A stretch of 64,000 bases of DNA from Candidatus Poribacteria bacterium (GCA_963422705.1 OY730443.1:2270694-2334693), one strand, 5' to 3'. Positions 10,615-57,300 are shown, counted from the first letter of the stretch. Program-made: numbers and translations. Notes: generated from the sequence alone by a model not told the origin.

Positions 10615-11842
10615 GAAAAACCAGCAAGTTCAAACTTCAAAGTCAATCGAACATCGTCAAAATCGGCAATATGCTTGACGATATGTGGCAGATACACCAG
10701 CAATTCATGCTTTTACAGCGTAGGTTTTAAGGTGATGATAAGTTGCATGAGAAATCTCCGACGAGATTATTAAGGGATTGTCAAAAACAGCAGAAGCTCA
10801 ACCGACTAAGCACGACGAAAAATCGCATGTTCGGCTTTCAACCTGCCCGCATCTCGCATCAACAAACATATTGTGAAACTCAAGAAGCGCACAAAACCAC
10901 ATTGGGCAGACTTGCCGAGTCAAGTTGTGCAAGACGTTGTTCTGCGATATGGCAAATCACAAGACGCATTTTTCAAAAACATAGAAAACCGCAAAGCAGG
11001 TAAGACAAGACGTAAAGTCGGTAAACCGAAAATCAAACCGAGACACAAATACAACTCTATGACTTTCACACAAGCAGGCTACATACTTGAAAAAAATCGC
11101 ATCAAAATCAACTGTATAGATACGTGGTTCTCCTTCCACAAACACCGTGAAATCAACGGGACAATCAAGACGATAACACTCAAACGGGACAGGTGCGGTG
11201 ATTATTGGATATGCTTTTCGTGCGCGAATGTTGACGATTCCGAACCGAAACTCAAGACGAGTAAGAGCGCCGGGTTTGATTACGGAAACAAAACATTCCT
11301 TACAAGCGACGAAGGCAACAAGATAGAATCTCCGCAGTTTTTCAAACACTCCCTGAAAACGTTGCGATGCCTGAGCAAAGCCCTGAGTCGTAAAGTCAAA
11401 GGTTCTAACACCTATTATCGTGCGTGTCGTGCTTTGGCGAGACATCACAGAAAAGTCGCGCGCCAAAGAGAAGATTGGCAGTGGAAACTTGCCACCAAAC
11501 TTTGCACGGCGTTTGATATACTCTGTTTTGAAACACTGAATCTTGAGCGTAGGGCGAAACCGCCGTTTCGACGGTATGAAACGCCTCTGGGGCCGCAAAG
11601 TCTCTGAACACGCTTTCTATCAGTTCATACAGATATTGGAACAGAAGTGTGCAAAGCACGGTAAAAAACTTTTTTCTATCCGTCAGTGGACAGCAACAAC
11701 AAAACCATGCAGTGATTGCGGATACCATAATCAAGAACTCTCTCTTTCTGATAGACAGTGGACTTGTCCCGACTGTGGTTCTCATCACGATAGAGACGTC
11801 AACGCTGCTATCAATATCAAACGGGCAGGCTTGGCTGCCTAA
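10611..11842 (+). pseudogene. tnpB: tnpB (IS605 OrfB, RuvC-like RNA-guided nuclease), disrupted
   Basis: The N-terminus (MRKTSKFKLQSQSNIVKIGNMLDDMWQIH) is homologous to the second TnpB in this window. The frame is broken by the ~82-bp repeat element at 10744-10825 and by a 25-nt insertion (gcgtagggcgaaaccgccgtttcga, ~11546-11571). The C-terminal Zn-finger and RuvC-III (CSDCG..CPDCG..DRDVNAAINI) are in a third frame (11543-11842). Confidence 0.8.
10744..10825 (+). repeat. ~82-bp repeat-family element (single copy) inserted in tnpB
   Basis: Consensus TTGCATGAGAAATCTCCGACGAGATTA...CAAAAACAGCAGAAG...CACGACGAAAAA. Other members are at 13233, 13796-14002, 15632-15875 and 57219. Confidence 0.75.
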
Positions 11843-11946
11843 AGTGGAGCGACAATGAGACGGGGTTTCTCTCAGAGAAAAGCGCCGTCGCTACGAAGCA
11901 CAAGCCCCTACCTTCAGGTAGTGGGTACCTATGACAGGCACAATTT

Positions 11947-13143
11947 ATGGCAACAGTAAAACTGGAAAACATTACAAAACGTTTTGATGACGTCATCGCA
12001 TTAGACAATATCACTTTTGATGTCCACGATAAGGAATTCTTTGTGCTACTTGGCCAGACGGGTGCTGGAAAAACGACAATGCTCCGCTGTATCGCCGGTT
12101 TGGATAAGCCTGAAGAAGGGAGTATCTATTTAAATGATGTGTGCGTCAACGACAAAACGCCTGCAGCCCGGGATGTCGCATTTGTCTTTCAATCGCATAT
12201 TCTGTATCCTCACCTCACCGTTTACGACAATATGGCGTTTCCGCTGCATCCGCGTAAACTTCCGATTGAGGAAATTGACCGGCGCGTCAAAGACATTGCG
12301 GGGATGCTCCACATTGAGCATCTTCTGAGGCGCATGCCGGGGCAGCTGAGTGGCGGTGAAACTCAACGTGTCGGGTTAGGACGGGCGATGGTGCGCCGGC
12401 CACAACTCTTTCTGATGGATGAACCCATCTCTAACCTCGATGCAAAACTAAGGGTGGAAATGCGGGGCGAAATCCGCTGGAGGCAACGTGCACTCAAAAC
12501 AACAACCTTCTACGTCACGCACGAGCAGATTGAAGCGATGTCTATGGCAGACAGAATCGCTGTTCTTGAAGCAGGAAAAATCCAGCAATTGGGCACACCT
12601 TCTGATATTTATAACCATCCTGCCACCCTATTCGTTGCGAATTTTATTGGCAGTCCCAGCATGAACTGCATCCCGTGTGAAATTTCTAGCAGCAACGCCC
12701 AGCTCCAATTCACGCTAATGGCGGCACCCTTTCAACGTACACAAAATTCAAGTTCCAGGGGTTCTGAGAAAAATGCCGGTAAACTCAGCAGAAATCTAGC
12801 CGCCTCTTCAGTAACAATTCAGGATGTACGCATCACTAAAGCGTTTCACGAAGTTGCCGAAAACCGTTCGGCTATTTTGGGGGTGCACCCTGAAGATGTC
12901 ATTGTCAGTCATCAGCTGATACCGAATGCGTTTCAAACGGAAGTCTATAGTGTCGAACCACTTGGTGCCGAGACGATAGTTGAGTTAACACTCGGAACGG
13001 ATGCGACTGGTGCGCACACGACTCTCAAATCCAGGGCAGCTCCTAATTTTCAGACGCAAATTGGGGAATCCCTCTACGTCACGTTTGTTCCTGAACGGCT
13101 ACACTTCTTTGATAAAACCACGGGCGAAGCGATTTGGACCTAG
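11947..13143 (+). CDS. ABC transporter ATP-binding protein, MalK/UgpC/PotA type with C-terminal TOBE-like domain
   Basis: Walker A GQTGAGKTT, ABC signature LSGGETQRV, Walker B LFLMDEP. 398 aa. Confidence 0.85.
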   Translation: MATVKLENITKRFDDVIALDNITFDVHDKEFFVLLGQTGAGKTTMLRCIAGLDKPEEGSIYLNDVCVNDKTPAARDVAFVFQSHILYPHLTVYDNMAFPLHPRKLPIEEIDRRVKDIAGMLHIEHLLRRMPGQLSGGETQRVGLGRAMVRRPQLFLMDEPISNLDAKLRVEMRGEIRWRQRALKTTTFYVTHEQIEAMSMADRIAVLEAGKIQQLGTPSDIYNHPATLFVANFIGSPSMNCIPCEISSSNAQLQFTLMAAPFQRTQNSSSRGSEKNAGKLSRNLAASSVTIQDVRITKAFHEVAENRSAILGVHPEDVIVSHQLIPNAFQTEVYSVEPLGAETIVELTLGTDATGAHTTLKSRAAPNFQTQIGESLYVTFVPERLHFFDKTTGEAIWT

Positions 13144-13232
13144 TCCAATTGTTGTGTCTGCAGTAATTCGCCCGGAATGCTCTTTTTAAATACCGAGAAA
13201 AATGAACTTGTATGAGAAATATCCGAAATAAG

Positions 13233-13313
13233 TTGCAGGAGAAATCTCCGACGATATTACCCATGGCTTGTCAAAAACAGCAGAAGATGAACGCACTGCA
13301 CCCGACGAAAATA
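13233..13313 (+). repeat. ~80-bp repeat-family element (single copy)
   Basis: GTTGCAGGAGAAATCTCCGACGATATTACCCATGGCTTGTCAAAAACAGCAGAAGATGAACGCACTGCACCCGACGAAAA; same family as the copy at 10744. Confidence 0.7.
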
Positions 13314-13670
13314 TGAGTTGGCAATTGAAACTCTTTAACGCAACACCCAAATTTGTCAAGCGCATCGGCTGCAATCTGCTAAGGTATCTTGGCTATAAAC
13401 CGGATGTATGGTTAGAAAACTTTCTCAAAAAGCATAAAGATTGACAACCGTAAGGGTAACGCGCTATATCTGCCCTATATCTCATACGATAAAGGAGTTG
13501 ATACGTGAAAGGCGGAGATATTCTTATTGAATGTTTGAAGGGACAGGGCATCACGGCGGTTTTCGGGATGCCTGACACCCAAAACATCCACATCTACGAT
13601 GCGCTCCTACGACGTGCTACAGGAAAGAGTGCTAATGAACTAGGAAATTCATCAGCACTCTTTTTTGGTA

Positions 13671-13743
13671 CTCCCCCAGACGGACTCGAACCGCCGACAC
13701 GATGGTTAACAGCCATCTGCTCTACCGACTGAGCTATGGGGGA
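13671..13743 (-). tRNA. tRNA-Asn (anticodon GTT)
   Basis: Reverse complement reads TCCCCCATAGCTCAGTCGGTAGAGCAGATGGCTGTTAACCATCGTGTCGGCGGTTCGAGTCCGTCTGGGGGAG. It has a 7-bp acceptor stem, a D-arm, a T-arm GGTTCGAGTCC, and an anticodon loop CTGTTAA. No CCA is encoded. Confidence 0.85.
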
Positions 13744-13795
13744 TTGTGCAAAGTAATTATACACGATTGTAACCCGAATTGCAAATTAAAATTTC

Positions 13796-14002
13796 ACTTT
13801 TTCGTCGGGTGCGGTGCGTTCATCTTCTGCTGTTTTTTCACAATCCGTGGATAATATCGTTTTTTCGTCGGGTGCAATACGCTGCGCTTCTGCTGTTTTT
13901 GACAATCCGTGGATAATATCGTTTTTTCGTCGGGTTCAGTATGCTGCGCTTCTGCTGTTTTTCACAAGCCGTGGGTAATATCGTCGGAGATTTCTCATGC
14001 AA
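13796..14002 (-). repeat. Tandem array of three ~61-80-bp repeat-family units (inverse orientation)
   Basis: Three contiguous units (tttttcgtcgggtgc...ctgctgttttt(c/g)acaa(t/g)ccgtgg(a/g)taatatcg). The array terminates in tcggagatttctcatgcaa. Not CRISPR-like: there are no spacers. Confidence 0.75.
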
Positions 14003-14043
14003 CTTAATTATAAGGGGCACGAATTTTCGCATAGGCACGGTTT

Positions 14044-16641
14044 TTATTTTTCCCAAGAAAAAACCTGCATTTGAGCAGTCTCAATCCACTTTACCACAAT
14101 ACTTCGCGCGGGAATGGTGACATCTTCATGGTTAAACAAATCTCTCCGGAAATTCGCAAAGATTTCAACAGTATCTGCAAACGCTGTTCGCTGGATTTGC
14201 TTATCCTCAGTGAGCCATTCAAAATCCGTCATCGCCTGTCCCCCAATCTGTCGATGCAACGGTGAAAAGAACTCATAGTGTCGCTTTATCCAGGCTTTAT
14301 GCTTTGAAAATTCTGCCATATTCAGATGGTACAACGGTGGAACATTGTATAGCAATTCCAGCAGAGACAAGGTTTCCGTGACGTTTTTGAATTTTAGCGT
14401 ACCGGAATGCCAATGATTTGTCGTCACCACGGAATCGTGAAACACAATTTGGTAAAGTGGTAACCGGAAGCGCGGTTCGAAATAGAGATACAAGTAGCGT
14501 GGTTTGAGAGGCACCTGCTTTATATGAATCGCCGGGGCCTCGGGGGGCCAGTATCCACCTATGTAGTATGGCGATGTTTTTGTCGTCATGTCTGCATCAC
14601 CCCACCCGATGACAGGTGTCATTATCCCGTGTGCAAAATGAAGCGTCGCCGCGGCATAGGCAGCACCCCCTTCTGAACCGACAACGGTGTGGTGTCTATC
14701 CCGAATCCACGCGATACGTGCGAGTCGCGCCTTCATATCATCTAACTGTGTTGCAGGGTGCAATGGTGAATAATCGTCAAAAAGCTCGCCGTAGGCATCG
14801 CAATCAATGAACCACGAATTGAAGCCTACCGGCATCTGTGCGACGATATTGTTAACCCGGTTTTCAACATGCGGGCGCGCAGCGAGCGGACTTAAGTGAT
14901 ACCCCTTCTTTTTAAACCCTCTATTCTTTGTGCCGTCTGCGTTGATAATGGCACCACCCTCATAAAGCAAATGGTCAAACTGTGCGGTTTCCCAGCTATC
15001 TTTTTCGTCCGGATGATGGATGCTATGGTATGAGTCATAAGGCCCAATCAAATAGCCGAGCGCTTTTGCCTTCGCGACGGCAGTAGGGTGCCGAAACCCG
15101 TCCTGCCACGAATCAACACCCAGCCAGAGTCTGTCAAGTCCATTTTCTGCGAACCGTTCCAACAGTTTTACAGAGAGCCCGTCTCCCCATACATCGGGAT
15201 GCAGTAGCATATCTGAAAACACAGCGTAAAACAGAAGACTGTTCCGCCGGTAAATCTCTGAAAGTGATAGCGTGGACTGATTTCGCGAGAGCAACCGCTC
15301 CGTTTCAGGGTTCAGAAGAATCCCTGTCCAAGCAGGTGGATTGTAAAAATTCGGCGCCTCAAGTTGTTCACTTATCGCACGGCTGACAACCCGCTGGTTG
15401 TATTTTGATACGTGTGATGACTGAGCAATCTCTTGGACGGTTTCCTTTGCTTCCGCGTTGAGTTGTGAAAAAATATATGTCTCGGCAGTCTCCTGTATCC
15501 TTTCATCGGGAACGTGACTGAGTTTTGAGGCGAACGCCTTCCAGTCCGTTATATCGTGTCGCCCGAGCAGATTGCTACCCCAGAGATAGATATGCGCAGC
15601 GCCCAGTAATTTCTCTACCTCAGCCACCTGTTTTTCGTCGTGTGTAGAACGCTTTTTCGTCGTGTGTAGCGCGTTCAGCTTCTGCTGATTTTGTGACTCA
15701 TGGGATAATCTCGTCGGAGATTTCTGATGCAACTTATTTTTGTCGTGTGTAGCGCGTTCAATTTCTGCTGATTTTTGTGACTCATGGGATAATCTCGTTT
15801 TTTCGTCGTGTGTAGCGCGTTCAGCTTCTGCTGATTTTTGTGACTCCTGGGATAATCTCGTCGGAGATTTCTTATCCAGGTTCATTTTAACCTTTTCAAC
15901 AAATGAGACAAATTCACCGTTCTGCTTCAACCACCGCCTGTAAGTCTTCGCGGGTGTAACAGGGGAGCCCCCGCCGAGTGAGATACGCACGCCGTATCTT
16001 TTCCGTACCCAATTCGGCGTGAAGGCATGTGATACCCGCATTCCTAATCCAAATTCTGCCACTGTGTCGAATGTCAATCGGTTATTGAACGGATTTGTTA
16101 AAATATAGGTAAGGTTCCATTCTCCAAAATCTAAACCCCAAAATGGCATTGAGAGCCCCGAGGTTGTGTTTATCGCCCCCTGTTCGCGCAAGAAATCCTG
16201 CCAAAGCTTATCATCTACTGGGACGTAGCTGCCCTCGAAAAATGGGAAGATGTATCCCTGAAGCGATGAAGTACCTTGAATCAGGGGCCATGTCAAATTG
16301 CCGGATGCTTCTGAAACGAATTCAACGGAGAGCACATCTCCAATTAATTCAGCCCGCACGCTGAAGAAAGATTTAGGCAGTTTCCAATTGACTAGGTTAT
16401 CTCCTTGGACAAGTGCCATAACGTTTCCAAGCCCCGGCTGCCCTTGTGAAATTCGGAACGCAGTTCTCCCTTTTTGCTGTGCAAGCACTTCAAGCGATTG
16501 GGTAGCAATTTCAACGCGCCATATATCGTTCGTCAGCGTCACGATTTCAGGTGGATTGCTCAAAGCGATTTTATTCAATAGAACCACCGCGAGGCAGAAG
16601 ACATAAAGTGGGATTCTCTTCATGCAGCCAACTGCTCCCAC
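14044..16641 (-). CDS. Secreted glycoside-hydrolase-like protein (signal peptide) with an in-frame repeat-derived insert
   Basis: 865 aa. N-terminal signal peptide MKRIPLYVFCLAVVLL. The C-terminal half resembles carbohydrate-active TIM-barrel enzymes (DCDAYGELFDDY, GSEGG). The central segment KSPTRLSQESQKSAEAERATHDEK... is encoded by the 15632-15875 repeat array. Confidence 0.45.
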   Translation of the reverse strand: MGAVGCMKRIPLYVFCLAVVLLNKIALSNPPEIVTLTNDIWRVEIATQSLEVLAQQKGRTAFRISQGQPGLGNVMALVQGDNLVNWKLPKSFFSVRAELIGDVLSVEFVSEASGNLTWPLIQGTSSLQGYIFPFFEGSYVPVDDKLWQDFLREQGAINTTSGLSMPFWGLDFGEWNLTYILTNPFNNRLTFDTVAEFGLGMRVSHAFTPNWVRKRYGVRISLGGGSPVTPAKTYRRWLKQNGEFVSFVEKVKMNLDKKSPTRLSQESQKSAEAERATHDEKTRLSHESQKSAEIERATHDKNKLHQKSPTRLSHESQNQQKLNALHTTKKRSTHDEKQVAEVEKLLGAAHIYLWGSNLLGRHDITDWKAFASKLSHVPDERIQETAETYIFSQLNAEAKETVQEIAQSSHVSKYNQRVVSRAISEQLEAPNFYNPPAWTGILLNPETERLLSRNQSTLSLSEIYRRNSLLFYAVFSDMLLHPDVWGDGLSVKLLERFAENGLDRLWLGVDSWQDGFRHPTAVAKAKALGYLIGPYDSYHSIHHPDEKDSWETAQFDHLLYEGGAIINADGTKNRGFKKKGYHLSPLAARPHVENRVNNIVAQMPVGFNSWFIDCDAYGELFDDYSPLHPATQLDDMKARLARIAWIRDRHHTVVGSEGGAAYAAATLHFAHGIMTPVIGWGDADMTTKTSPYYIGGYWPPEAPAIHIKQVPLKPRYLYLYFEPRFRLPLYQIVFHDSVVTTNHWHSGTLKFKNVTETLSLLELLYNVPPLYHLNMAEFSKHKAWIKRHYEFFSPLHRQIGGQAMTDFEWLTEDKQIQRTAFADTVEIFANFRRDLFNHEDVTIPARSIVVKWIETAQMQVFSWEK
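15632..15875 (-). repeat. Tandem array (about 3.3 units) of the ~63-80-bp repeat family, embedded in-frame in a CDS
   Basis: Units: cgtcgtgtgtagcgcgttcagcttctgctgattttgtgactcatgggataatctcg(tcggagatttctgatgcaac). Same family as the copies at 10744, 13233, 13796 and 57219. Confidence 0.75.
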
Positions 16642-17378
16642 AATGCCCGATAATAGTTCATCACCCGCACCGGTTCGGAACTGCCGGCGATTTCAGCGAG
16701 ACAGTAACCTGAGTATCCGGATTCCCTCAGTAAGGTGAACAACTGCCGCCAGGGGTATTCCGGACGGTGTAATTCAGTGATATGTACCAATCCGATTCGT
16801 CCCTTTACAAAACTGAAATTGTTGAGAATTGAGCCGTTTTCGACTTCTCCAAAGTTAGAATTCCAGCAGACAGAGACGTTCTCATGTTCCGCTATATCAA
16901 TAATCGTGCGAATATGTGGCAATTCCGATGTTCCGCCCCCGTGTACCTCTAAGCGAATTTCCACGCCAAGGTTTGCTGCGAACTCACCGCATTCCCGCAA
17001 AGCCCGTCCAATTTGTTCCAGCGTTTTTTCCACAGGCACCTCTGCGAGTAGTCCATTTGGTCGGACTTTCACGCCGGGGGCGCCGACATCCGCTGCTAAT
17101 TGGGAATAAGCCTTCGTTCCTTCTATATTCTGACGGACAACTCCCGGTTCCACCGCATGATAGTCAAACGCGGAACCTAAGCCCGCGATTTCAATTGGCG
17201 AGTCGGCGAACTGTTGTTTTACAGTCGCCCGTTCACTTTCCGAAAGCGACACTTCCACCCCATGCGCATGGGTTGTCCGTAGCTCAACACCCTCAAAACC
17301 CGTTTCCACACACCGTTCAATGATTGTGGAAACCTCCCAATCTTTCGCCATATTATAGGTAACCAAACCGAGCTTCAT
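16620..17378 (-). CDS. Sugar phosphate isomerase/epimerase, xylose isomerase-like TIM barrel family
   Basis: 252 aa. Divalent-metal-binding TIM-barrel pattern (EVSTIIERCVETGFEGVEL ... VHITELH) typical of the AP-endonuclease-2/xylose-isomerase-like family. Confidence 0.7.
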   Translation of the reverse strand: MKLGLVTYNMAKDWEVSTIIERCVETGFEGVELRTTHAHGVEVSLSESERATVKQQFADSPIEIAGLGSAFDYHAVEPGVVRQNIEGTKAYSQLAADVGAPGVKVRPNGLLAEVPVEKTLEQIGRALRECGEFAANLGVEIRLEVHGGGTSELPHIRTIIDIAEHENVSVCWNSNFGEVENGSILNNFSFVKGRIGLVHITELHRPEYPWRQLFTLLRESGYSGYCLAEIAGSSEPVRVMNYYRALWEQLAA

Positions 17379-20691: not shown

Positions 20692-21838
20692 TTAGGTAAC
20701 GGCTATCCCTGCCCGCAATATGTTTCGCGCAGCGTTTATATCCCTATTGTGGTGTGAACCACAGTCGGGGCATGTAATAAGCCTGTCCTTCAATGTTAGG
20801 CTTTCGTTATGAAAACCGCAATCGCTACACGGTTTTGTTGTGGCAGTCCATTGTCCGACTTGTTTCATCATACGCTTATGTTTACTACATTTATACTTCA
20901 ATATCTCAACAAATTGATAAAAAGCGAGTTCCGAGACTTTACGCCCCCACAGGCGTTTCATGCCATCAAGGTTCAATGTCTCAAGGACAAAGGCAAGAAA
21001 ACTTTTTACAAAGTTCACTTGCCAGTTGCCAGTGAAAGTCTTTGCGTTGGTTGCTAATTTTCCGATACAGGTGTGCAAGTTGCCTGACACACCGCCACCA
21101 ACGGTTAGAACCTTTTTGCTTACCATTCAATGCTTTGTTGAGAGTCCGAAGTTTGTTCAAGGAGTGTTTCAAAGGGTGCGGGTGGTGTCTTTTCTCACCC
21201 GTGCTAAGAGTCAAGTAAGCAGATGAGAGTCCGACGTCTGCCCCAACGCTTTCACCTGTTGTCGGCAGCGTCTTAAAATCGGTGTCATCCGTTATGATGT
21301 AAAGCCAATAGTCGCCACAAGTATCACGTTTGATGGTGATACGACGGAGAGTCCCATGCCACGGGCGGTGCTTATGAAACGTAGTTGGCACTTTATCAAA
21401 TCGCCACGTCCCTTTATCCCACTGACGAAAGGTGAGTGTGATACAGTTATTAATCAGTTTAAATCCAGTTTGTTTCAGCGTGATAGACTTAAACTTATGC
21501 TCCGGTTTGATATGGGGGTTACCTCCCCGTTTATTAAAGAACCTTTGATACGCATTATCAATTCGTTCCAACTCTGCTTGGATGGCTTGGCTTGGCAACA
21601 CCTTCCAATGGGGATGTGTGGTTCGTTTCAATATGCAGGCATGTCGACACATTGCAGCGTAGTTGGCATACGGCAAGCCATCTTTATACCGGTGACGCTG
21701 CCACTTATGGAAATACACATGCACCTGCCACATATCGTCAAGCAGGTTGCCAAGACGTATCGTATTCGATTGATTGCCAATTTTATATTGATAGGTTTTC
21801 ATGGGATATCGTGTATCGCGCCTTTTACCTGCAATCAA
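20692..21838 (-). pseudogene. tnpB: tnpB (IS605 OrfB), apparently frameshifted
   Basis: Two overlapping ORFs (20981-21838 and 20692-21126) together give a complete TnpB: N-terminus MKTYQYKIGNQSN..., C-terminus CSDCG...CPDCGSHHNRDINAARNI. The frameshift is near 21010-21030. It may be authentic or a sequencing error. Confidence 0.7.
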
Positions 21839-39890: not shown

Positions 39891-39930
39891 ATTCTCTGAA
39901 TTTCTGGTTATCGGGTTTCTAATCACATTA

Positions 39931-40663: not shown

Positions 40664-40727
40664 CAGGTGACATCAGCAATTTCTTCACCTTCCCAAATCT
40701 AAGTCGGATACCTACAGCTACACCCCA

Positions 40728-43700: not shown

Positions 43701-44228
43701 TACTCGCCGAATGAACACTACAACTCGATGTTTCCAGAACTTTTTGAAACCGAAAAGTTGATGTTTCTCGGGATTGTAAAAGAGGGGTTGCGATGTGCTT
43801 ATGACGCCGAACGGTTCTACAATTGCAGCACGGTTATAAACTGTGTTCGCTTAGATTTACTTTCCGGTGCCTCTCATATCACAGCCCGCCGCGCAACGCA
43901 ATCTGCTGATAACAAATTCGTGAAGCGGTATGATTACAAATTTCTGTTGGGCGTTTTAAATTCTGGCGTCACAAATTGGTATTTCCGCAGCTTTTTAAGC
44001 GAGGGGTTACATTGTCACCCAAATGATGTAAAAGAGTTGCCTATTCCAAAAATGCCGCGCCAGCAGCAGCAACCGATTATTGGGTTGACATCTCACATTC
44101 TCGCGGCGAAAGCGGAGGATTCGGAGGCGGACGTCTCCGCTCTTGAAGCGGAGATTGACAGGCTGCTCTGCGCTTTCTACAACTTTACGCCGGAGGAGAT
44201 GCGTATCCTGGAGTGTAGGTGGGGATAA
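40728..44228 (+). CDS. Eco57I/PglX/DrmMI-like N6-adenine DNA methyltransferase (paralog 2, TRD variant)
   Basis: 1166 aa with the same motifs as paralog 1. Near-identical to paralog 1 except for clustered substitutions in the C-terminal ~250 aa (DVRLPRG, LGIVKEGLRC, SEGLHCHPND, YNFTPEEMRILECRWG). Confidence 0.85.
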   Translation: MNKEHIRNALADIPTGNLVQTAKALLATMGYRSERNLELSGTVDDFIENFPTRGQEDKKEPTKTEQTFRNTVESIYVVFQITENEINPQAQQTVDFAEKSLAESFCFFAADLKEKPTSRSRYAELTREINKRLSIPAVVLFRTGNRLTIGVAGRRQHRRKSGRDVIERVTLIKDIRLENPHRAHLDILAELALGECMQWMDAHKKQRSFDELLDTWLAKLDTEELNKQFYRRLFAWFEWAISEATFPKNEKKILKPEEHVIRLITRILFIWFLKEQGLVADALFNQTQIPSLLKDDDFDNGSSYYRAVLQNLFFATLNTEIKQRGFSSNTPTGHRDFSRYRYAAEIRAPEKLVELFAQTPFVNGGLFECLDSEEAAMHGGYRIDCFSDKHGKKLCFPNRLFFDKHCGLFPLLNHYKFTIEENIPVEQEVALEPELLGKVFENLLAAYNPETGTTARKGTGSYYTPRVVVDYMIDEIVVATLVEKCQPSDGDATLWEERLRYLLDYGQTFDDANEWFDAPETDAIVRTISELKILEPAVGSGAFPLAMLRKLTLALRRLDSANQRWQQLQRRRAAQRAEDAFETDDDEARREELIEIDETFRRYRDSDFGRKLYLIQNNLFGVDIQPIACQITKLRFFISLAIEQKPARHLDNFGFKPLPNLETRFLAANTLVRLQGQPEFVTVHIQALERQLRENRERHFHATTRQQKLDCISNDKAIRTELAAALEELGFFARDAQNIAHWNPYQQNENADWFEPEWMFGINDGFDIVMGNPPYISVTKIPAPLRDYLFENYQTCIKRTDIYIAFLERALSILQPNGMMCFILSSAFAKQKYGEKMRRRLIENHAIRDIVDASRYRIFENAAVHNIVLLVGNQKTDVETRIRLHTSNADFETPGECAFSIKQDDFAELKDARLETAPNIRESLRVKKRIWERAVRFDKICLVAYGARLNSPSAGKRKQDYISDVRLPRGKRFCEGRDIRRYTFSQTGWLRYSPNEHYNSMFPELFETEKLMFLGIVKEGLRCAYDAERFYNCSTVINCVRLDLLSGASHITARRATQSADNKFVKRYDYKFLLGVLNSGVTNWYFRSFLSEGLHCHPNDVKELPIPKMPRQQQQPIIGLTSHILAAKAEDSEADVSALEAEIDRLLCAFYNFTPEEMRILECRWG

Positions 44229-44268
44229 ATTCTCTGAATTTCTGGTTATCGGGTTTCTAATCGCATTG

Positions 44269-47200: not shown

Positions 47201-47950
47201 GGGAGCGCGCGGTGCGTTTCGATAAGATTTGCCTTGTCGCTTACGGCGCCAGGCTCAATTCCCCTTCAGCGGGAAAAAGAAAACAGGATTACATCAGCGA
47301 AGCCCGTCTTGCAGGGCGCAAACGGTTTTGTGAAGGAAGAGACATTCGGCGTTATACGTTTTCTCAAACCGGATGGTTACGCTACTCGCCGAATGAACAC
47401 TACAACCCGATGTTTCCAGAACTTTTTGAAACCGAAAAGTTGATGTTTACCTGTATTGTGAATGAGCGGTTGCGATTTGCTTATGACGCCGAACGGTTCT
47501 ACAATTCCCACACGGTTATAAACTGTGTTCGCTTAGATTTACTTTCCGGTGCCTCCCATATCACCGCCCGCCGCGCAACGCAATCTGCTGATAACAAATT
47601 CGCGAAGCGGTATGATTACAAATTTCTGTTGGGCGTTTTAAATTCTGGCGTCACAAATTGGTATTTCCGCAGTTTCTTAAGCACAGGTTTAAATTGTTAC
47701 CCGGATGATGTAAAAGAGTTGCCTATCCCAAAAATGTCGCGCCAGCAGCAACAACCGATTATTGGGTTGACATCTCAAATTCTCGCGGCGAAAGCGGAGG
47801 ATTCGGAGGCGGACGTCTCCGCTCTTGAAGCGGAGATTGACAGGCTGCTCTGCGCTTTCTACAAGCTTACCGCGGAGGAGATGAGTATCCTGGAGCATGG
47901 GCGGGGATGAATTCTCTGAATTTCTGGTTATCAGGTTTCTAATCACATTG
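44269..47950 (+). repeat. Tandem repeat unit 3 (~3.7 kb)
   Basis: Only the last ~35 bp of the small gene remain upstream of paralog 3. Confidence 0.8.
44410..47910 (+). CDS. Eco57I/PglX/DrmMI-like N6-adenine DNA methyltransferase (paralog 3)
   Basis: 1166 aa and overall the most divergent copy, with substitutions scattered along its length. Its TRD patches resemble paralog 1. Confidence 0.85.
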   Translation: MNKEHIRNALADIPTGTLVQTAKALLATLGYRSERNLELSGTVDDFIENFPTRGQEDKKEPTKTEQTFRNTVESIYVVFQITENEVNPQAQQTVDFAEKSLAESFCFFAADLKEKPTSRSRYAELTREINKRLSIPAVALFRTGNRLTIGFAGRRQHRRKSGLDVIERVTLIKDIRLENPHRAHLDILAELALGECLQWMDAHKKQRNFDGLLDTWFAKLDTEELNKQFYRRLFAWFEWAISEATFPKNEKKILKPEEHVIRFITRILFIWFLKEQGLVADALFNQTQIPSLLKDDDFDNGSSYYRAVLQNLFFATLNTEITRRGFSSNTPTGHRDFSRYRYAAEIRAPEKLLELFAQTPFVNGGLFECLDSEEAAMHGGYRIDCFSDKHGKKLCFPNRLFFDKHRGLFPLLNHYKFTIEENTPVEQEVALEPELLGKVFENLLAAYNPETGTTARKGTGSYYTPRVIVDYMIDEIVVATLVEKCQPSDGDATLWEERLRYLLDYGQTFDDANEWFDAPETDAIVRTISELKILEPAVGSGAFPRAMLRKLTLALRRLDSANQRWQQLQRRRAAQRAEDAFETDDDEARREELIEIDETFRRYRDSDFGRKLYLIQNNLFGVDIQPIACQITKLRFFISLAIEQKPARHLDNFGFKPLPNLETRFLAANTLVGLQGQPELVTVHVQALERQLRENRERHFHATTRQQKLDCISNDKAIRTELAAALEELGFSARNAENIAHWNPYEQNENADWFEPEWMFGINDGFDIVMGNPPYISVTKIPAPLRDYLFENYQTCIRRTDIYIAFLERALSILQPNGMMCFILSSAFAKQKYGEKMRRRLIENHAIRDIVDASRYRIFENAAVHNIVLLVGNQKTDVETQIRLHTSNADFETPGECAFSIKQDVFAELKDARLETAPNIRESLRVKKRIWERAVRFDKICLVAYGARLNSPSAGKRKQDYISEARLAGRKRFCEGRDIRRYTFSQTGWLRYSPNEHYNPMFPELFETEKLMFTCIVNERLRFAYDAERFYNSHTVINCVRLDLLSGASHITARRATQSADNKFAKRYDYKFLLGVLNSGVTNWYFRSFLSTGLNCYPDDVKELPIPKMSRQQQQPIIGLTSQILAAKAEDSEADVSALEAEIDRLLCAFYKLTAEEMSILEHGRG

Positions 47951-48072
47951 TGAATGGTTTTTTGGTACCTGATACCCTTCTTTTCTGTGTTGCGTTCAGA
48001 TGGCAATACCTCCCAAAAAGTTGTATATAACCGACATCCCCGGGTGTTGCACATCTAAAAGGAGTGTTTACA

Positions 48073-49502: not shown

Positions 49503-50273
49503 TTATGTTTTAATCACAAAGAATTTTTCCTCTTTAATCTGTTCTTCAGGAAATCGTGCGCGTGCCCAGATAGCCTTTGCATTCTCTATCATCTGCGGAT
49601 GTCCACATGCATAGACGACGGCGTTATTTGCATTAAAATCGTTGGCATCGCCATATTTCCGAATCACATCTTCAGCGCGTCCACTCTCCCCCGTCCATTC
49701 CGGTTCTTCCCAGGGGCGACTTACCGTGGGCACAAATGTGAACCAGTCTTCTTGTTCGGCGAGGGTGCTGAGTTCGTCCATGTAGTATCCAAGTTCCCAT
49801 GAATGGCTAGCGCCGACAATTGCGAGGATTTGATGGGGGCTGTTTTCGCCGCGTTCCTGCTCAATTTTTTGTGTGCGTGCGATGCTAATGTATGGTGCTG
49901 CGCCAGTGACAGTACCCGCCATCAGGTGCCGCGTCATTCCGGTTTCGGTGTCCAAAACAAATTTCCCGACGAGCTTTTCGCGGAAGAAGACACTATCGCC
50001 GAGGTTGAGCTCCCAAAAGCGTGGTGTGGTTTCGCCTTCTGGTACGAGTTCGACGAAAACTTCCATAAACGGTTCATGGGGTGAGGAAACAATGGAGTAT
50101 GGGCGTTGTACGATTTTTTCGCCGGCTTCAAAGCCGATAGTGGCGTATTGTCCTGCAATAAACGACAGGGTTTTCTCAGTACGAAACTTGAAGGCGGCTA
50201 AATCTTCGGAGAAGTCTTCGCGCTCAATGAGTTCCCCTTTACAATATCGCGCTCTTGCGCGTCTTCTTTGCAT
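49503..50273 (-). CDS. Ferredoxin-NADP+ reductase-family oxidoreductase (FAD/NAD(P)-binding)
   Basis: RPYSIVSSP (RxYS FAD-binding motif) and GTVTGAAPYISIA (NAD(P)-binding). Confidence 0.65.
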   Translation of the reverse strand: MQRRRARARYCKGELIEREDFSEDLAAFKFRTEKTLSFIAGQYATIGFEAGEKIVQRPYSIVSSPHEPFMEVFVELVPEGETTPRFWELNLGDSVFFREKLVGKFVLDTETGMTRHLMAGTVTGAAPYISIARTQKIEQERGENSPHQILAIVGASHSWELGYYMDELSTLAEQEDWFTFVPTVSRPWEEPEWTGESGRAEDVIRKYGDANDFNANNAVVYACGHPQMIENAKAIWARARFPEEQIKEEKFFVIKT

Positions 50274-50328
50274 AATAACTTCCTCTACAATATTGCGCTC
50301 TTGCGCGTCTTCTTTGCATAATAACTTG
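50241..50328. repeat. 46-bp tandem duplication spanning the start codon region of the FNR-like gene
   Basis: acaatat(c/t)gcgctcttgcgcgtcttctttgcataataactt x2. Confidence 0.7.
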
Positions 50329-53472: not shown

Positions 53473-54231
53473 GTGGATGCCACAGGGGTTCCTTGTCGTG
53501 TCCCTTTTTACTTTACCAAAGGGTTTGAAAACCCGAAAGGAGCATTTACAATCCTTTTGAAAAAGTTTTACCTTCCGATTGGTATTCTGATAGTTGCGCT
53601 CTGTGCAGTCGGTTTATTCTTGTTGCGTTCCGATGTGCCAGAGGAACCGATTGTGATTCACAAGCCGACAATCACGGAAACGCCATTAAAGGTTACCGCA
53701 GCAGAGGAAACCGCTCAAGAGAAATTTGATCGCGAGATGCGAGAAAAAATGGCTCTTAAGGAACAAGAAATCGCCAAATACAAGGAGAAAACCGCCAAAT
53801 ACAACGATGAAACCGCCAAATACAAGGAGAAAACCGCCAAATACAAGGAGAAAATCGCCAAATACAACGATAAAACCGCCAAATACAACGATAAAACCGC
53901 AGCCATTCGTGCTGAGTTTGAAGCACTCAAGGCGAAAGATGCTGAACGGACAGAATACCTTTCCCGTATTACAGAGAAGGGCAAAGAGTTTGTAGCTCAA
54001 TTCCCGGATATGCTGGAGATGACACCTGAAAAGTATCTTGCATTATCCGAAACGGAGCAGGAAAAATTCCTTTTGCGTTGCGTTGAATACGATTTATTGA
54101 TAGAAAATATTCAAGAAATAATCAATTCAATGCCTCAATGGATTCTCGATGAGTGCGATGACAGCCAACCAGGAGCCATTGATGAGTTTCTCAACCTTCC
54201 ATCGCTAACAGAATTATACGGGAGTCTATAA
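53473..54231 (+). CDS. Membrane-anchored protein with six AKY(K/N)(E/D)(K/E)T heptad repeats
   Basis: TM helix IGILIVALCAVGLFLL. The heptads are encoded by a 21-bp x6 tandem repeat. The true start is probably TTG near 53556, after the RBS AAAGGAG. Confidence 0.45.
   Translation: MDATGVPCRVPFYFTKGFENPKGAFTILLKKFYLPIGILIVALCAVGLFLLRSDVPEEPIVIHKPTITETPLKVTAAEETAQEKFDREMREKMALKEQEIAKYKEKTAKYNDETAKYKEKTAKYKEKIAKYNDKTAKYNDKTAAIRAEFEALKAKDAERTEYLSRITEKGKEFVAQFPDMLEMTPEKYLALSETEQEKFLLRCVEYDLLIENIQEIINSMPQWILDECDDSQPGAIDEFLNLPSLTELYGSL
53773..53898 (+). repeat. 21-bp x6 in-frame tandem repeat (gccaaatacaa(g/c)ga(g/t)(a/g)aaacc)
   Basis: Read directly from the sequence. Encodes the AKYKEKT/AKYNDKT heptads. 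Confidence 0.8.
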
Positions 54232-56138: not shown

Positions 56139-57216
56139 TTTGAGTGCTGTTAGCAAGATGTTTTCTAGTCCGAGATTCTTGAAATACTTAACGATGCCGG
56201 CCCTGATTCTGTTAAGCGCGTTTGCTACCAACGCCGTTATCATCATCGTGTGTGGGTATAACCCGTTATCTGCGTTTGCGGCGGCGATGGATGGTGCGTT
56301 CGGTAACGGGCGTAAACTAGGCGAGACATTAGTAAAAAGCACGCCGTTTCTGATGACGGGGCTTTCCGTTGTGGTTGCGTTTCGATGTGGTATCTGGAAT
56401 ATCGGCGCGGAGGGGCAGTTTCTGATTGGTGCCTTGGCCACGACGTGGTTTGGGACGCGCCTCGCGGCGCTGCTTCCTGCGACAGGGTGGGTGGCGGTGC
56501 CTCTCGGCCTGGCATTCGGCGCCATCGCAGGCGGCATCTGGGGGCTATTTCCGGCAATCTTAAAAGTAATCCGCGGTGTGAATGAAGTGATTAGTACGAT
56601 TATGTTAAATTATGTCGCGCTCTATTTGGTGAGCCTGATGGTGGATGGTGGCCCGCTCCAAGAGGTAACACAGCGCGGGCCGCAAAGCGACAGGTTATCG
56701 GAATGGGTATTTCTGCCCCGGCTTTTCCCCCCGCACCGCATCCATCTCGGTATTGTCATCGCGATTATTTTAGCAATTGTGCTGGCATTCGTCCTATTTC
56801 GGACAATCTATGGCTATCAACTCCGTGCTGTGGGTGAAGGTGAAGCGGCCGCGGAAGCAGCCGGTATTTCTATTTTTCAGAATACCCTCCGGGTTTTCTT
56901 CATCAGCGGGGCATTGGCAGGGTTAGGCGGCGCGATTGAATTGATGGCGCTGACACGCCGCCTCTTCCCAAATTTCTCACCCGGGTACGGCTACACCGCT
57001 ATTGCCGTGGCGCTGCTTGCGAAATTGCATCCCCTGTTAACAATTGGTTCCGCTTTTTTGTTTGGCACATTAACAACCGGCTCGTATGCGATGCAACGGG
57101 GCACCGGTATTTCCGACAAAGTCACGTTTGTGATGCAAGCGACGCTCCTTCTCTATGTGATTGGGTACAGTTCGATTAAAATGGATTTTTGGTCAAAAAT
57201 AAATACGAAAAGATGA
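56125..57216 (+). CDS. ABC transporter permease (BMP-family/branched-chain type)
   Basis: 363 aa, multi-TM. Its start overlaps the ATPase gene stop. Confidence 0.8.
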   Translation: MRLSDLSAVSKMFSSPRFLKYLTMPALILLSAFATNAVIIIVCGYNPLSAFAAAMDGAFGNGRKLGETLVKSTPFLMTGLSVVVAFRCGIWNIGAEGQFLIGALATTWFGTRLAALLPATGWVAVPLGLAFGAIAGGIWGLFPAILKVIRGVNEVISTIMLNYVALYLVSLMVDGGPLQEVTQRGPQSDRLSEWVFLPRLFPPHRIHLGIVIAIILAIVLAFVLFRTIYGYQLRAVGEGEAAAEAAGISIFQNTLRVFFISGALAGLGGAIELMALTRRLFPNFSPGYGYTAIAVALLAKLHPLLTIGSAFLFGTLTTGSYAMQRGTGISDKVTFVMQATLLLYVIGYSSIKMDFWSKINTKR

Positions 57217-57218
57217 AG

Positions 57219-57300
57219 TTGCATAAGAAATCTCCGACGAGATTTTCCCAGGCGTCACAAAAACAGAAGAAAATCAGCACACTGCACACGACGAAAACAA
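57219..57300 (+). repeat. ~82-bp repeat-family element occupying the intergenic space between the two permease genes
   Basis: GTTGCATAAGAAATCTCCGACGAGATTTTCCCAGGCGTCACAAAAACAGAAGAAAATCAGCACACTGCACACGACGAAAACAAG. It starts 2 nt after the upstream stop and ends at the next ATG. Confidence 0.75.

What the first reader, a model, noticed from the sequence alone, without database searches (positions are those of the whole stretch)
10744..57300. Previously undescribed ~80-bp repeat family present as single copies and as tandem arrays, including one array inside a coding sequence
Members are at 10744-10825, 13233-13313, 13796-14002 (3 units, inverted), 15632-15875 (about 3 units) and 57219-57300. The consensus is TTGCATgAGAAATCTCCGACGAgATTAtCCcatGg(c/a)tgtCAAAAACAGCAGAAG...CgCtgCACacGACGAAAA, and it contains a small hairpin (AATCTC-cgac-GAGATT). 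One copy interrupts tnpB#1. One exactly fills the spacer between two permease genes, stop to ATG. One array is translated in-frame within the 865-aa secreted protein, adding SQESQKSAE(A/I)ERATHD repeats. It is not CRISPR (there are no spacers) and no terminal inverted repeats or target-site duplications are evident. It looks like a REP/MITE-like or minisatellite element that is tolerated in ORFs.
Basis: seen in the sequence. Interest (0 to 1): 0.6.

Follow-up and report, generated by a model that had tools for sequence, protein, structure and literature searches.

The report
Poribacterial cap–unit–tail interspersed repeat family
A real, apparently undescribed family of ~85-bp interspersed repeats in sponge-symbiont Poribacteria that sits mostly just in front of start codons, sometimes inside genes, and locally grows into 62–63-bp tandem arrays; it behaves like the MIRU and BOX repeats of other bacteria and shows no sign of belonging to a new class of system.

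Summary
Five loci carry the repeat: 6 matches to the 21-nt core against 0 expected. Two independent assemblies reproduce them.

The element has three parts:
- a 21–24-nt 5' cap, (AT[G])AAGTTGCATnAGAAATCTCCG;
- a 62–63-nt unit, ACGAGATT…ACGAAAAA, which alone is repeated in the arrays;
- an A-rich tail that ends the unit.

Evidence that it inserts:
- Array D is a 255-nt in-frame insertion that none of the 51 aligned homologues of the GH129 protein has; all 119 listed are 66–110 aa shorter.
- Copy A splits the tnpB gene of a lineage-specific IS605 element.
- Copy B is absent from two syntenic genomes.

Related subfamilies occur in at least three other Poribacteria assemblies. Only AAnCTCCGACGA(G) and the ACGAAAA-type tail are conserved.

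It has no terminal inverted repeats, clear target-site duplication, conserved RNA structure, Rfam match, sigma-70 promoter or similarity to the local IS ends.

All five window loci are co-oriented with the local genes. In 7 of about 28 copies the tail abuts the ATG of a real gene.

Best reading: a selfish, non-autonomous repeat of the MIRU/BOX/RPE kind, recognised through the invariant 12-mer by an unknown factor. The enzyme and the cause of the 3'-anchored arrays remain unresolved.

The parts
10740..10822 (+). Copy A: a single cap+unit element inserted in the N-terminal part of the tnpB#1 pseudogene of an IS200/IS605 element. The invariant core CTCCGACGAG lies at 10756-10765.
   Evidence: The three-frame translation shows tnpB broken as ...QRRF*GDDK | insert | IACSAFNLPAS...KPHW. 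The paralogue tnpB#2 (20981..21838 -) is continuous across this point. The frame change requires an insert of 82 or 85 nt.
13208..13229 (+). Possible body-less remnant (TTGTATGAGAAATATCCGAAAT = cap + CCG + tail) directly 5' of copy B. Alternatively it is native leader sequence, homologous to AATCTAAACGAAAT in L053.
   Evidence: AGAAATATCCGA is 92% identical to AGAAATCTCCGA, 25 nt apart.
13230..13312 (+). Copy B: a single element whose tail ...CGACGAAAAT is followed at once by the ATG (13313) of a conserved 43-aa ORF (13313-13444). That ORF lies upstream of a truncated TPP-enzyme gene.
   Evidence: The syntenic loci L053 and L054 have the small ORF but no element. The KSPTR frame of the element stops at a TGA overlapping that ATG (ATGA).
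13798..14005 (-). Array C. Cap 14005-13985; unit 1 13984-13923; unit 2 13922-13861; unit 3 13860-13798 (62, 62, 63 nt). It lies between the GH129 stop codon (14044) and the own promoter of tRNA-Asn (13671-13743 -).
   Evidence: (period 62, 3.0 copies, 88% matches). The tRNA promoter TTGCAA-17-TATAAT lies outside the array.
15631..15885 (-). Array D: a 255-nt in-frame insertion (85 codons, residues 268-352) in the 865-aa GH129 gene. Cap' 15885-15862 (ATGAACCTGGATAAGAAATCTCCG); unit 15861-15799; unit 15798-15736; second cap 15735-15715; unit 15714-15653; duplicated 22-nt tail 15652-15631.
   Evidence: The segment is absent from all 51 aligned homologues, and all 119 listed are only 755-799 aa. 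The empty site in L053/L054 reads GAAAAGATTAAG|CAGAC; the window reads GAAAAGGTTAAA|insert|CAGGTG. The Pfam GH129 domain is at 499-819. In the AF2 model the insert has pLDDT 29-45, between two confidently predicted domains.
57192..57212 (+). Possible degenerate older copy (GTCAAAAATAAATACGAAAAG = start of body + tail). It now encodes the non-conserved C-terminus (SKINTKR) of the upstream permease.
   Evidence: the orthologue's C-terminus diverges after FWS; 16-nt imperfect direct repeat ACGAAAAGATGAAGTT / ACGAAAACAAGATGTT, 86 nt apart.
57213..57301 (+). Copy E: a single element filling the spacer between two ABC permease genes. Its 5' ATGAAG supplies the upstream TGA stop (57214-57216). Its tail ...CGACGAAAACAAG ends at the downstream ATG (57302).
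   Evidence: The orthologous spacer in L055 carries a different subfamily of the same family at the same position.

Best explanation
This is a lineage-specific family of small, non-coding, non-autonomous interspersed repeats in sponge-associated Poribacteria. It is most likely selfish DNA that is, or recently was, mobile.

A full element is about 85 bp and has three parts:
- a 21-24-nt 5' cap;
- an invariant recognition block, AAnCTCCGACGA(G), spanning the junction of cap and unit;
- a variable body ending in an A-rich tail (ACGAAAA).

Shown here:
- It has entered unrelated sites: a glycosidase ORF, an IS-borne tnpB gene and intercistronic spacers. It did so without terminal inverted repeats or a clear target-site duplication, at A-rich positions.
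- Its tail often lies directly against a start codon.
- Once in place, the unit is amplified in situ into head-to-tail arrays that keep the exact 3' end.
- Units within an array are more alike (83-97%) than units at different loci (66-89%; 89% is B against C3, which lie 500 bp apart).

Inferred:
- An unidentified trans-acting protein recognises the invariant 12-mer and the tail.
- Copies persist where they are harmless. In the sense orientation the transcript is unstructured, poor in stop codons and ends in an A-rich leader that can stand in for the displaced upstream region.
- The antisense orientation carries terminator-like hairpin plus T-run signals and a Shine-Dalgarno (SD)+ATG look-alike, so it is purged from operons.
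- Inside the GH129 gene, selection kept the period at 63 nt (21 codons) against 62 nt in the non-coding array.
For: Reality and anatomy.

Filled versus empty sites:
- D is absent from all 51 aligned homologues and from the DNA of L053/L054; all 119 listed are 66-110 aa shorter.
- B is absent from L053/L054.
- A lies inside a tnpB whose paralogue lacks it. The IS itself is absent from the syntenic loci.

Family beyond the window:
- The exact 19-mer hits Poribacteria chromosomes OY282383.1 (6 loci) and OZ244048.1 (2 loci).
- Fuzzy scans find about 25 more copies in those 8-kb loci and in L055.
- A 20-copy alignment from four genomes has only AA.CTCCGACGA invariant.
- The syntenic 44 kb of L053/L054 and the loci L056-L058 have none.

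Not a structured RNA: single-copy folds have z between -1.2 and +1.5 on both strands. RNAalifold finds 3 pairs and no covariation. There are no Rfam hits even at E <= 10.

Not a sigma-70 promoter in the sense orientation. The antisense strand has terminator-like sites, TCAGC-TTCT-GCTGA followed by TTTTTG.

Orientation: 5 of 5 window loci are co-oriented with their genes although they lie on both DNA strands.

Start-codon adjacency: the tail is 0-4 nt from the ATG of a real gene in window B and E, L007-2764, L010(-)4653, L013-4893, L055-3833 and L012(-)6836. That is 7 of about 28 copies.

In-situ amplification: identity matrix.

Multi-copy in raw-read assembly: L059 breaks in the tail of B.
Against: - No mobilising enzyme or autonomous partner was found. 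The ends of the only IS in the neighbourhood are unrelated.
- Only five loci of the source genome could be examined, so the target preference and the absence of target-site duplications rest on two or three informative junctions. Runs of A make those junctions ambiguous by 1-3 nt.
- No strain-level polymorphism, in presence/absence or in array length, could be observed.
- The invariance of the 12-mer is partly due to ascertainment, because copies were found with that motif.
- The same permease spacer is occupied in the window and in L055. This could mean an old, functionally retained element rather than repeated insertion.
- Stop-codon depletion is only modest (P 0.02-0.17 per copy).
- In OY282383.1 about 30% of copies are antisense to their neighbouring genes.
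Confidence: 0.55

Rival explanations
1. It is a host-functional cis-element: a portable 5'-UTR or intercistronic leader. The invariant CTCCGACGAG block would be the binding site of a Poribacteria-specific regulator or RNA-binding or processing factor. The A-rich tail would serve as a translation-initiation region. Copies in ORFs and pseudogenes would be by-products.
For: - The 12-mer is invariant in 20 of 20 copies from four genomes while everything else diverges.
- The distance from the core to the 3' end is constant, 62-69 nt.
- The tail abuts start codons in 7 of about 28 copies.
- The permease-permease spacer is occupied at the same position in the window and in L055.
- The sense orientation is preferred.
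Against: - Copies sit in a dead tnpB and inside a glycosidase ORF.
- Arrays, truncated tails and body-less remnants look like decay and amplification, not regulation.
- Closely related genomes lack the element at the same genes without replacement.
- There is no promoter, no conserved RNA structure and no Rfam family.
- The downstream genes are functionally unrelated: der, ABC permeases, a 43-aa ORF and others.
Confidence: 0.2
2. It is a pure minisatellite spread by recombination. There would be no transposition: the sequence arose once and was propagated and homogenised by slippage, unequal crossing-over and gene conversion between microhomologies such as CGACGA and the runs of A.
For: - Units within an array are 83-97% identical.
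- There are short duplications of the tail alone: 22 nt in D, and 5 x 20 nt in L017.
- The motif CGACGA occurs in both the core and the tail.
- A body-less remnant lies next to B.
Against: - Slippage cannot place an 85-255-nt segment into unrelated sequence such as the GH129 gene or tnpB with no flanking homology.
- The unit-unit junction is GAAAAA|ACGAG, not the CGACGA|GATT expected from recombination on the shared hexamer.
- Three independent arrays are all anchored on the exact 3' end.
Confidence: 0.1
3. It is mobilised as single-stranded DNA by an HUH/Y1 enzyme of the IS200/IS605 TnpA or RAYT type. That would make it a palindrome-associated (PATE/REP-like) element.
For: - It has no terminal inverted repeats and no target-site duplication, and a small subterminal hairpin lies 13 nt from the 5' end.
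- The unit junction falls in the hairpin loop.
- An IS200-like Y1 transposase gene lies 128 nt upstream of copy A.
Against: - There is only one hairpin. It is 6 bp long, is weakened in B and C, and is lost in the AAACCTCCGACGAGATC subfamily with no compensatory change.
- No fixed tetra- or pentanucleotide lies 5' of the element.
- Copies lie on both strands within 600 bp and follow gene direction rather than replication direction.
- The ends of the local IS are unrelated.
Confidence: 0.08
4. It is an RNA-mediated, SINE-like retroelement. A transcript ending in the A-rich tail would be reverse-transcribed at A/T-rich nicks. 5'-truncated cDNAs added at an existing tail would give arrays anchored on the 3' end.
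For: - It has an A-rich 3' end.
- Insertions are at A-rich sites: GTTAAA|, the A-run before the tRNA promoter, and CGAAAT|.
- Arrays in three lineages keep the exact 3' end and start at different internal 5' points.
- Orientation follows transcription.
Against: - There are no target-site duplications.
- The tail is short and of fixed sequence (ACGAAAA), not a variable poly-A.
- All dispersed copies keep the full 5' cap.
- No reverse transcriptase was seen near any copy, and no precedent exists in bacteria.
- Units within arrays are most similar to their neighbours, which fits local duplication.
Confidence: 0.05

Closest known systems
MIRU (mycobacterial interspersed repetitive units; Supply et al. 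1997, as summarised in PMC12548453 and PMC3184786)
   Same: - Units are 40-100 bp and occur singly or as direct tandem arrays.
- They lie in intercistronic spacers of operons, in the same orientation as the genes.
- They are inserted at start codons.
- Filled and empty sites are seen between related genomes.
- They contain open frames that overlap neighbouring genes: ATGA overlaps occur at window B and E, L012 and L013.
   Different: - There is no sequence similarity, and the phylum and base composition differ (A-rich here, GC-rich in MIRU).
- No flanking 4-nt direct repeats were seen.
- A distinct 5' cap is present once per array.
- The -4 coupling geometry is not consistent across copies.
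- Copy-number polymorphism between strains could not be tested.
BOX elements of Streptococcus pneumoniae (boxA-boxB(n)-boxC; PMC3049150)
   Same: - It is a modular composite repeat in which one internal module varies in copy number.
- Large arrays can create or extend ORFs.
- Orientation-dependent effects are expected.
- Related families with different modules occur in related species.
   Different: - BOX has terminal inverted repeats (boxA and boxC pair), a stable predicted RNA fold and a separate 3' module.
- Here there is no terminal inverted repeat and no fold, and the repeated unit includes the 3' end itself.
RPE (Rickettsia palindromic elements; PMC10969869)
   Same: - A small repeat inserted in frame in a protein-coding gene adds a hydrophilic peptide segment compatible with the protein.
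- Here that is 85 aa between two predicted domains of a GH129 enzyme.
   Different: - RPEs are palindromic and are found in ORFs in about half of cases.
- Here there is only one intact ORF insertion in the sample. The element is not palindromic, and the encoded peptide is not conserved between subfamilies.
REP/BIME and MITEs in general
   Same: - They are short, non-coding, multi-copy and mostly intergenic.
- They cluster and nest with other small repeats, as seen in OY282383.1.
- Subfamilies are species-specific.
   Different: - This family has no extended palindrome, no GTAG-type 5' tetranucleotide, no terminal inverted repeats and no target-site duplication.
- No partner IS or RAYT was identified.

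Membership tests
MITE | Terminal inverted repeats | tested here: not met
   The only inverted repeat in each copy is the internal 6-7-bp AATCTC/GAGATT pair. The ends AAGTTGCAT... and ...CGACGAAAAA are not complementary.
MITE | Target-site duplication flanking the insertion | tested here: not met
   Site D: the empty site GTTAAG|CAG compared with GTTAAA|insert|CAGG shows at most 1-3 ambiguous A. Site A: the frame arithmetic leaves at most 1 nt duplicated. The 16-nt imperfect repeat at E looks like an older tail.
MITE | Ends shared with an autonomous IS in the same genome | tested here: inconclusive
   The ends of the IS200/IS605 copy in the window are unrelated. The rest of the 4.0-Mb genome could not be searched.
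MITE | Highly base-paired secondary structure | tested here: not met
   Fold z-scores lie between -1.2 and +1.5 on both strands. The consensus structure has 3 pairs at -1.1 kcal/mol.
REP/REPIN (RAYT-associated) | A 20-40-nt imperfect palindrome with a conserved 5' GTAG-type tetranucleotide, often in inverted doublets | tested here: not met
   There is no such palindrome. Head-to-head pairs do occur in OY282383.1 (L007 276/311; L010 3330/3426) but not in the window.
REP/REPIN (RAYT-associated) | A cognate RAYT gene in the genome | not testable with these tools
   Only 64 kb of the source genome is available. The one Y1 gene in the window (Pfam Y1_Tnp) belongs to an IS200/IS605 element.
MIRU-type intercistronic minisatellite | Units of 40-100 bp, single or in direct tandem arrays | tested here: met
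   Units are 62-63 bp and the full element is ~85 bp. The arrays have 3 and about 3.3 units.
MIRU-type intercistronic minisatellite | Located between co-transcribed genes, in the same orientation as the genes | tested here: met
   5 of 5 window loci are co-oriented. E lies between two permease genes of one ABC operon. About 70% of copies in the other genomes are in the sense orientation.
MIRU-type intercistronic minisatellite | Insertion at start codons, with an internal ORF overlapping the downstream start (-4) | tested here: inconclusive
   The tail lies 0-4 nt from the ATG of a real gene in 7 of about 28 copies. An ATGA overlap of an element frame with the gene start occurs at B, L012 and L013, but not at E, L055 or L010.
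MIRU-type intercistronic minisatellite | Filled and empty sites between related genomes | tested here: met
   Sites D and B are empty in L053/L054. D is absent from all 51 aligned homologues, and all 119 listed are 66-110 aa shorter.
MIRU-type intercistronic minisatellite | Tetranucleotide direct repeats at filled sites; variable copy number between strains | tested here: not met
   No 4-nt direct repeats are seen at A or D. Strain variation could not be tested: the only second assembly, L052, is identical.
BOX-type composite repeat | Three module types, A-B(n)-C, with A and C pairing as terminal inverted repeats | tested here: not met
   The architecture is cap-(unit)n. There is no separate 3' module and no pairing between the ends.
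IS200/IS605-derived PATE | Subterminal hairpins at both ends and a fixed 4-5-nt target 5' of the left end | tested here: not met
   There is a single 6-bp hairpin, not conserved between subfamilies. The left flanks differ: GATGAT, CGAAAT, ATAATT, GTTAAA, AAAAG.
CRISPR array | Direct repeats separated by unique spacers of similar length | tested here: not met
   Units abut head to tail with no spacers.
Any Rfam RNA family | Covariance-model match | tested here: not met
   Only tRNA-Asn is found at gathering threshold. Nothing overlaps the repeats at E <= 10 in 13150-16000.

The most novel reading that the evidence does not exclude
The most novel reading not excluded is that the family spreads by a directional, transcription-linked copying process. 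Candidates are an RNA intermediate copied by a reverse transcriptase primed on A/T-rich target DNA, or another end-anchored template-switching mechanism.

Four features would fit that reading:
- the absence of terminal inverted repeats and target-site duplications;
- the A-rich 3' end;
- the preference for A-rich sites next to start codons;
- arrays in three lineages that all keep the exact 3' end but begin at different internal 5' points.

If so, it would be a bacterial counterpart of a SINE.
Probability: 0.05. Interest if true: 0.85.

Novelty: new member of a known kind. Interest (0 to 1): 0.4.

Why it matters
- **For the source genomes.** Poribacteria are uncultured sponge symbionts whose complete genomes have only recently come from long reads. 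A catalogue of their small repeats is needed for correct gene calling: here the element creates an 85-aa protein insert, a new permease C-terminus and spurious small ORFs. It also explains why short-read assemblies break at these points.
- **For the biology of small repeats.** The family offers a second, phylogenetically remote example of the MIRU pattern: sense-oriented repeats parked at start codons that grow into tandem arrays. Its single invariant 12-mer is a concrete handle for finding whatever protein recognises or moves such elements.
- **As a marker.** If array length varies between strains, it would serve as a VNTR-type marker for symbiont populations.

Tried and rejected
**Searches and look-ups that gave little or nothing**
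- Metagenome scan with the 19-mer: 29 loci, almost all chance matches. Only four (L027/L028, L029/L048) scored above the rest in nhmmer, and their heads match but their bodies are unrelated.
- Viral contig scan: 0 hits.
- Peptide search with the 86-aa translation of array D: 21 candidates, none at E <= 10 (one search was a parameter error). In-frame copies in other proteins could therefore not be listed this way.
- Look-ups that found nothing: the 865-aa GTG-start version of the protein and the last gene of the window.
- Extending the window through its first gene gave only about 1 kb more.
- Literature searches for Poribacteria repeats or MITEs returned nothing relevant.

**Hypotheses tested and rejected**
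- Sigma-70 promoter (TTGCAT as the -35 element): no site passes the scan in the sense orientation. TTGCAT is absent from the OZ244048.1/L055 subfamily, and no -10 element is conserved.
- Structured RNA, ribozyme or riboswitch: rejected.
- SD-sequestering leader read from the opposite strand (GGAGATTTCTCATG): the ATG opens only 1-11 codons, and in the window it always lies antisense to the genes.
- Integron attC, Helitron/IS91-type ends and sigma-54 or ECF promoters: considered from memory only, and dropped because the terminal or spacing signatures do not fit the sequences.
- Protein-coding function of the KSPTR frame: differences between subfamilies change the amino acid, and subfamilies 2 and 3 carry stop codons in that frame.

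**Weak result**
- The AF2 model of the GH129 protein is poor overall (mean pLDDT 56). It is used only for the position of the insert between two confident domains.

Full report

Yes.
- The 21-nt core GAGAAATCTCCGACGAGATTA (up to 3 mismatches) occurs 6 times in the window against 0.00 expected from shuffles.
- The body motif GTCAAAAACAGCAGAAG and the tail GCACNCGACGAAAAA are also enriched.
- A profile built from five full copies finds nine units with E between 6e-25 and 2e-9, and nothing else in the 64 kb.
- Tandem Repeats Finder reports arrays of period 62 (13798-13984, 3.0 copies) and period 63 (15737-15861).
- A separate 4.5-kb contig (L052) is 100% identical over 13044-16898, covering B, C and D.
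- A Logan read assembly (L059) is identical from 11907 to 13301 and stops inside the tail of copy B, as a de Bruijn graph does at a multi-copy repeat.
- So the copies are not artefacts of one collapsed locus.

**2. Anatomy**

Reading all copies in one orientation shows a modular element.
- The 5' cap is (AT[G])AAGTTGCATnAGAAATCTCCG, 21-24 nt.
- The unit is ACGAGATTATCC...CAAAAACAGCAGAAG...GCACACGACGAAAAA, 62-63 nt.
- Single copies (A, B, E) are cap plus unit, about 85 nt.
- Array C is one cap plus three units.
- Array D is cap' + unit + unit + cap + unit + a 22-nt duplicate of the tail, 255 nt in all.
- The unit-unit junction is GAAAAA|ACGAGATT. It falls in the loop of the small hairpin AATCTC-CGAC-GAGATT.
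- That hairpin is the only inverted repeat in the element.
- There are no terminal inverted repeats.

**3. Context in the window**

- All five loci are co-oriented with the local genes, although A, B and E lie on the + strand and C and D on the - strand.
- A sits in the N-terminal part of a tnpB gene (Pfam OrfB_IS605), downstream of an IS200-like tnpA (Pfam Y1_Tnp).
  - The tnpB reading frame runs ...QRRF*GDDK, then the insert, then IACSAFNLPAS...KPHW.
  - The paralogue tnpB#2 is continuous across this point.
- B ends exactly at the ATG (13313) of a 43-aa ORF that is conserved in two related genomes.
- C lies between the stop codon of the GH129 gene and the own promoter (TTGCAA-17-TATAAT) of tRNA-Asn.
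- D is in frame in the 865-aa GH129 protein.
- E fills the spacer between two ABC permease genes. Its 5' ATGAAG provides the upstream TGA stop, and its tail ends 3 nt before the downstream ATG.

**4. Evidence that it inserts**

- A search with the 865-aa protein returned the same protein from a 4.0-Mb contig, plus 119 homologues of 755-799 aa, mostly unnamed and a few labelled Candidatus Poribacteria.
- Alignments with 7 and with 51 of them show that none carries the 85-residue segment.
- At the DNA level the syntenic loci L053 and L054 read GAAAAGATTAAG|CAGAC. The window reads GAAAAGGTTAAA|255 nt|CAGGTG.
- The same two loci keep the gene order around B and C but contain no copy of the family in 44 kb.
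- They also lack the IS605 copy that carries A. A therefore entered a lineage-specific IS.
- No duplication of flanking sequence is seen at D beyond 1-3 ambiguous A. The frame arithmetic at A allows at most 1 nt.

**5. How D is tolerated**

- The units in D are 63 nt (21 codons), against 62 nt in the non-coding array C.
- One unit that lost a base is followed by a 22-nt tail duplicate that restores the frame.
- The insert lies N-terminal of the Pfam GH129 domain, which spans residues 499-819.
- In an otherwise poor AF2 model (mean pLDDT 56), the insert has pLDDT 29-45. It sits between two confidently predicted parts, residues 30-240 and 360-480.

**6. The family outside the window**

- An exact 19-mer scan of one genome per species hit two Poribacteria chromosomes, OY282383.1 (6 loci) and OZ244048.1 (2 loci). 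The 14 other hits are about what chance predicts (my own estimate of about 13 for a 19-mer in 596 Gb).
- Fuzzy searches in those 8-kb loci found about 25 further copies, falling into at least three subfamilies.
- A 20-copy alignment from four genomes has a single invariant block, AA.CTCCGACGA. G and A are nearly invariant after it, and the tail is A-rich, of the ACGAAAA or ACAAAAA type. The bodies cannot be aligned between subfamilies.
- The distance from the core to the 3' end is nevertheless 62-69 nt everywhere.
- The hairpin is not maintained. The AAACCTCCGACGAGATC subfamily breaks it without compensation.
- RNAalifold keeps only CUC/GAG, with no covariation.
- Single copies fold no better than shuffled sequence on either strand.
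- Rfam has no match, even at E <= 10.

**7. Position relative to genes**

- In 7 of about 28 copies with a recognisable tail, the tail lies 0-4 nt from the ATG of a real gene. The seven are:
  - window B;
  - window E;
  - L007-2764 (243 aa);
  - L010(-)4653 (809 aa);
  - L013-4893 (der, 458 aa);
  - L055-3833 (permease, 308 aa);
  - L012(-)6836 (about 315 aa).
- By my rough estimate, a random position in a spacer of about 150 nt would do this about 3% of the time.
- The orthologous permease-permease spacer of L055 (84% protein identity) carries a copy of that genome's own subfamily at the same place. It also carries two and a bit reversed 67-nt units.
- L056 and L057 carry other repeats in that spacer.
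- In OY282383.1 about 70% of copies are in the sense orientation relative to their neighbours.

**8. Why orientation might matter**

- The sense strand has no sigma-70-like promoter.
- The antisense strand has terminator-like hairpin plus T-run sites inside the units, for example TCAGC-TTCT-GCTGA followed by TTTTTG.
- The antisense strand also reads GGAGATTTCTCATG, a good look-alike of a ribosome-binding site followed by a start codon.
- Selection against these signals inside operons is a sufficient explanation for the co-orientation. This is inferred, not shown.
- Orientation does not follow replication. Copies of both orientations lie within 600 bp of each other, on one side of the only GC-skew sign change in the window.

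**9. Arrays**

- Units within an array are 83-90% (C) and 94-97% (D) identical. Units at different loci are 66-81% identical, except B against C3 at 89%. This fits amplification in place.
- Arrays in three lineages all keep the exact 3' end of the element but start at different internal 5' points (for the last three):
  - window: GAAAAA|ACGAGATT;
  - OY282383.1: GACGAAAA|CCTCCGACGAG;
  - L055: ACGAAAAC|GGCTCAGGCGAGATTT, in 67-nt units;
  - L017: five tandem copies of the 20-nt tail alone.
- Three complete elements (B, D3, E) directly follow a tail or a tail-like CGAAA(A)N.
- Simple recombination on the shared CGACGA hexamer would give a different junction.
- I cannot explain this 3' anchoring. 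It is the one feature that hints at a directional copying process.

**10. Interpretation**

- The best-supported reading is a selfish, non-autonomous interspersed repeat. It inserts at A-rich sites, is recognised through the invariant 12-mer, and survives where it is harmless.
- I put this at about 0.55.
- The main rival is a host-functional portable leader or binding site (0.2). In its favour are the invariant block and the start-codon adjacency. Against it are the copies in a dead tnpB and inside an ORF, the decay products, and the absence of the element at the same genes in close relatives.
- The other rivals are recombination-only spread (0.1), HUH/ssDNA mobilisation (0.08) and an RNA-mediated mechanism (0.05). 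Their evidence is listed in the rival section.

**11. Comparison with known families**

- Functionally and positionally the closest are the mycobacterial MIRUs. These are 40-100-bp units, single or tandem, intercistronic and sense-oriented, inserted at start codons, with filled and empty sites between species (PMC12548453; PMC3184786).
- The modular, variable-copy architecture recalls pneumococcal BOX elements (PMC3049150).
- The in-frame ORF insertion recalls Rickettsia RPEs (PMC10969869).
- It fails the defining tests for MITE, REP/REPIN, BOX, IS200/IS605-derived PATE, CRISPR and every Rfam family (see the membership table).
- I therefore file it as a new member of the general kind 'small bacterial interspersed repeats of the MIRU type'. 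It is not a member of any named family.

**12. Verdict**

- It is a useful annotation-level discovery in an uncultured phylum, with one intriguing unexplained feature, the 3'-anchored arrays.
- Nothing here points to a new class of system.
- Interest: 0.4.

Noticed in passing
window 36390-47910 (repeat families D1-D3, D5, D8): Three tandem copies of an 1166-aa gene with Eco57I, N6_Mtase and TaqI_C domains (a type IIG restriction-modification enzyme), at 36390, 40728 and 44410. Long stretches are 97-99% identical, but some parts are only about 60% identical. This may reflect exchange or variation of the specificity domain.
   Followed up: partly
window 13505-13640, compared with L053 13798-15432 and L054 15277-16911: The TPP-dependent enzyme gene (544 aa in the related genomes) is cut down to about 47 codons and abuts the terminator of tRNA-Asn. 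The PhyH gene and a 115-aa ORF present in the syntenic loci are missing. This is a lineage-specific deletion or rearrangement between copies B and C, which are inverted relative to each other and 89% identical (B against C3).
   Followed up: partly
window 13313-13444: A 43-aa ORF (MSWQLKLFNATPKFVKRIGCNLLRYLGYKPDVWLENFLKKHKD) is conserved upstream of the TPP-enzyme gene in L053 and L054 (MNLRLRLFNLIPKFLKRVGCQ...). It is probably a real small gene or leader peptide.
   Followed up: partly
window 10246-11842: The IS200/IS605 copy is decayed. tnpB#1 has an in-frame stop, the repeat insertion and a frameshift near the C-terminus. The second tnpB (20692-21838, - strand) is also split into two ORFs. 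The ends and omega-RNA region of the IS were not analysed.
   Followed up: partly
L001, L007, L010, L017, L021 (OY282383.1): This genome is packed with other small repeats. One is a hairpin element (…CCCCGCAAAGCGGGG…) that is itself inserted inside copies of the family (L021 5755, L017 2537, L010(-)4653). Another is a conserved upstream extension, TTCTAGAGTG…CCTAATTAAG, in front of many caps.
   Followed up: no
L056 3600-3885; L057 3631-3841: The same permease-permease spacer in two other Poribacteria holds unrelated repeats, for example two ~120-nt tandem units in L056 ending at the ATG. This spacer is a general sink for repeats.
   Followed up: no
window 53768-53900, 51388-51515/54499-54626, 50236-50327: Other repeats unrelated to the finding: a 21-nt x 6.3 tandem repeat (AAACCGCCAAATACAACGAGA, whose period is a whole number of codons), a 128-nt pair 3.1 kb apart, and a 46-nt x 2 tandem repeat.
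   Followed up: no
window about 44000-48000: GC skew changes sign from negative to positive, with the cumulative minimum near 46 kb. This could be a replication origin or terminus, or an effect of gene orientation.
   Followed up: no
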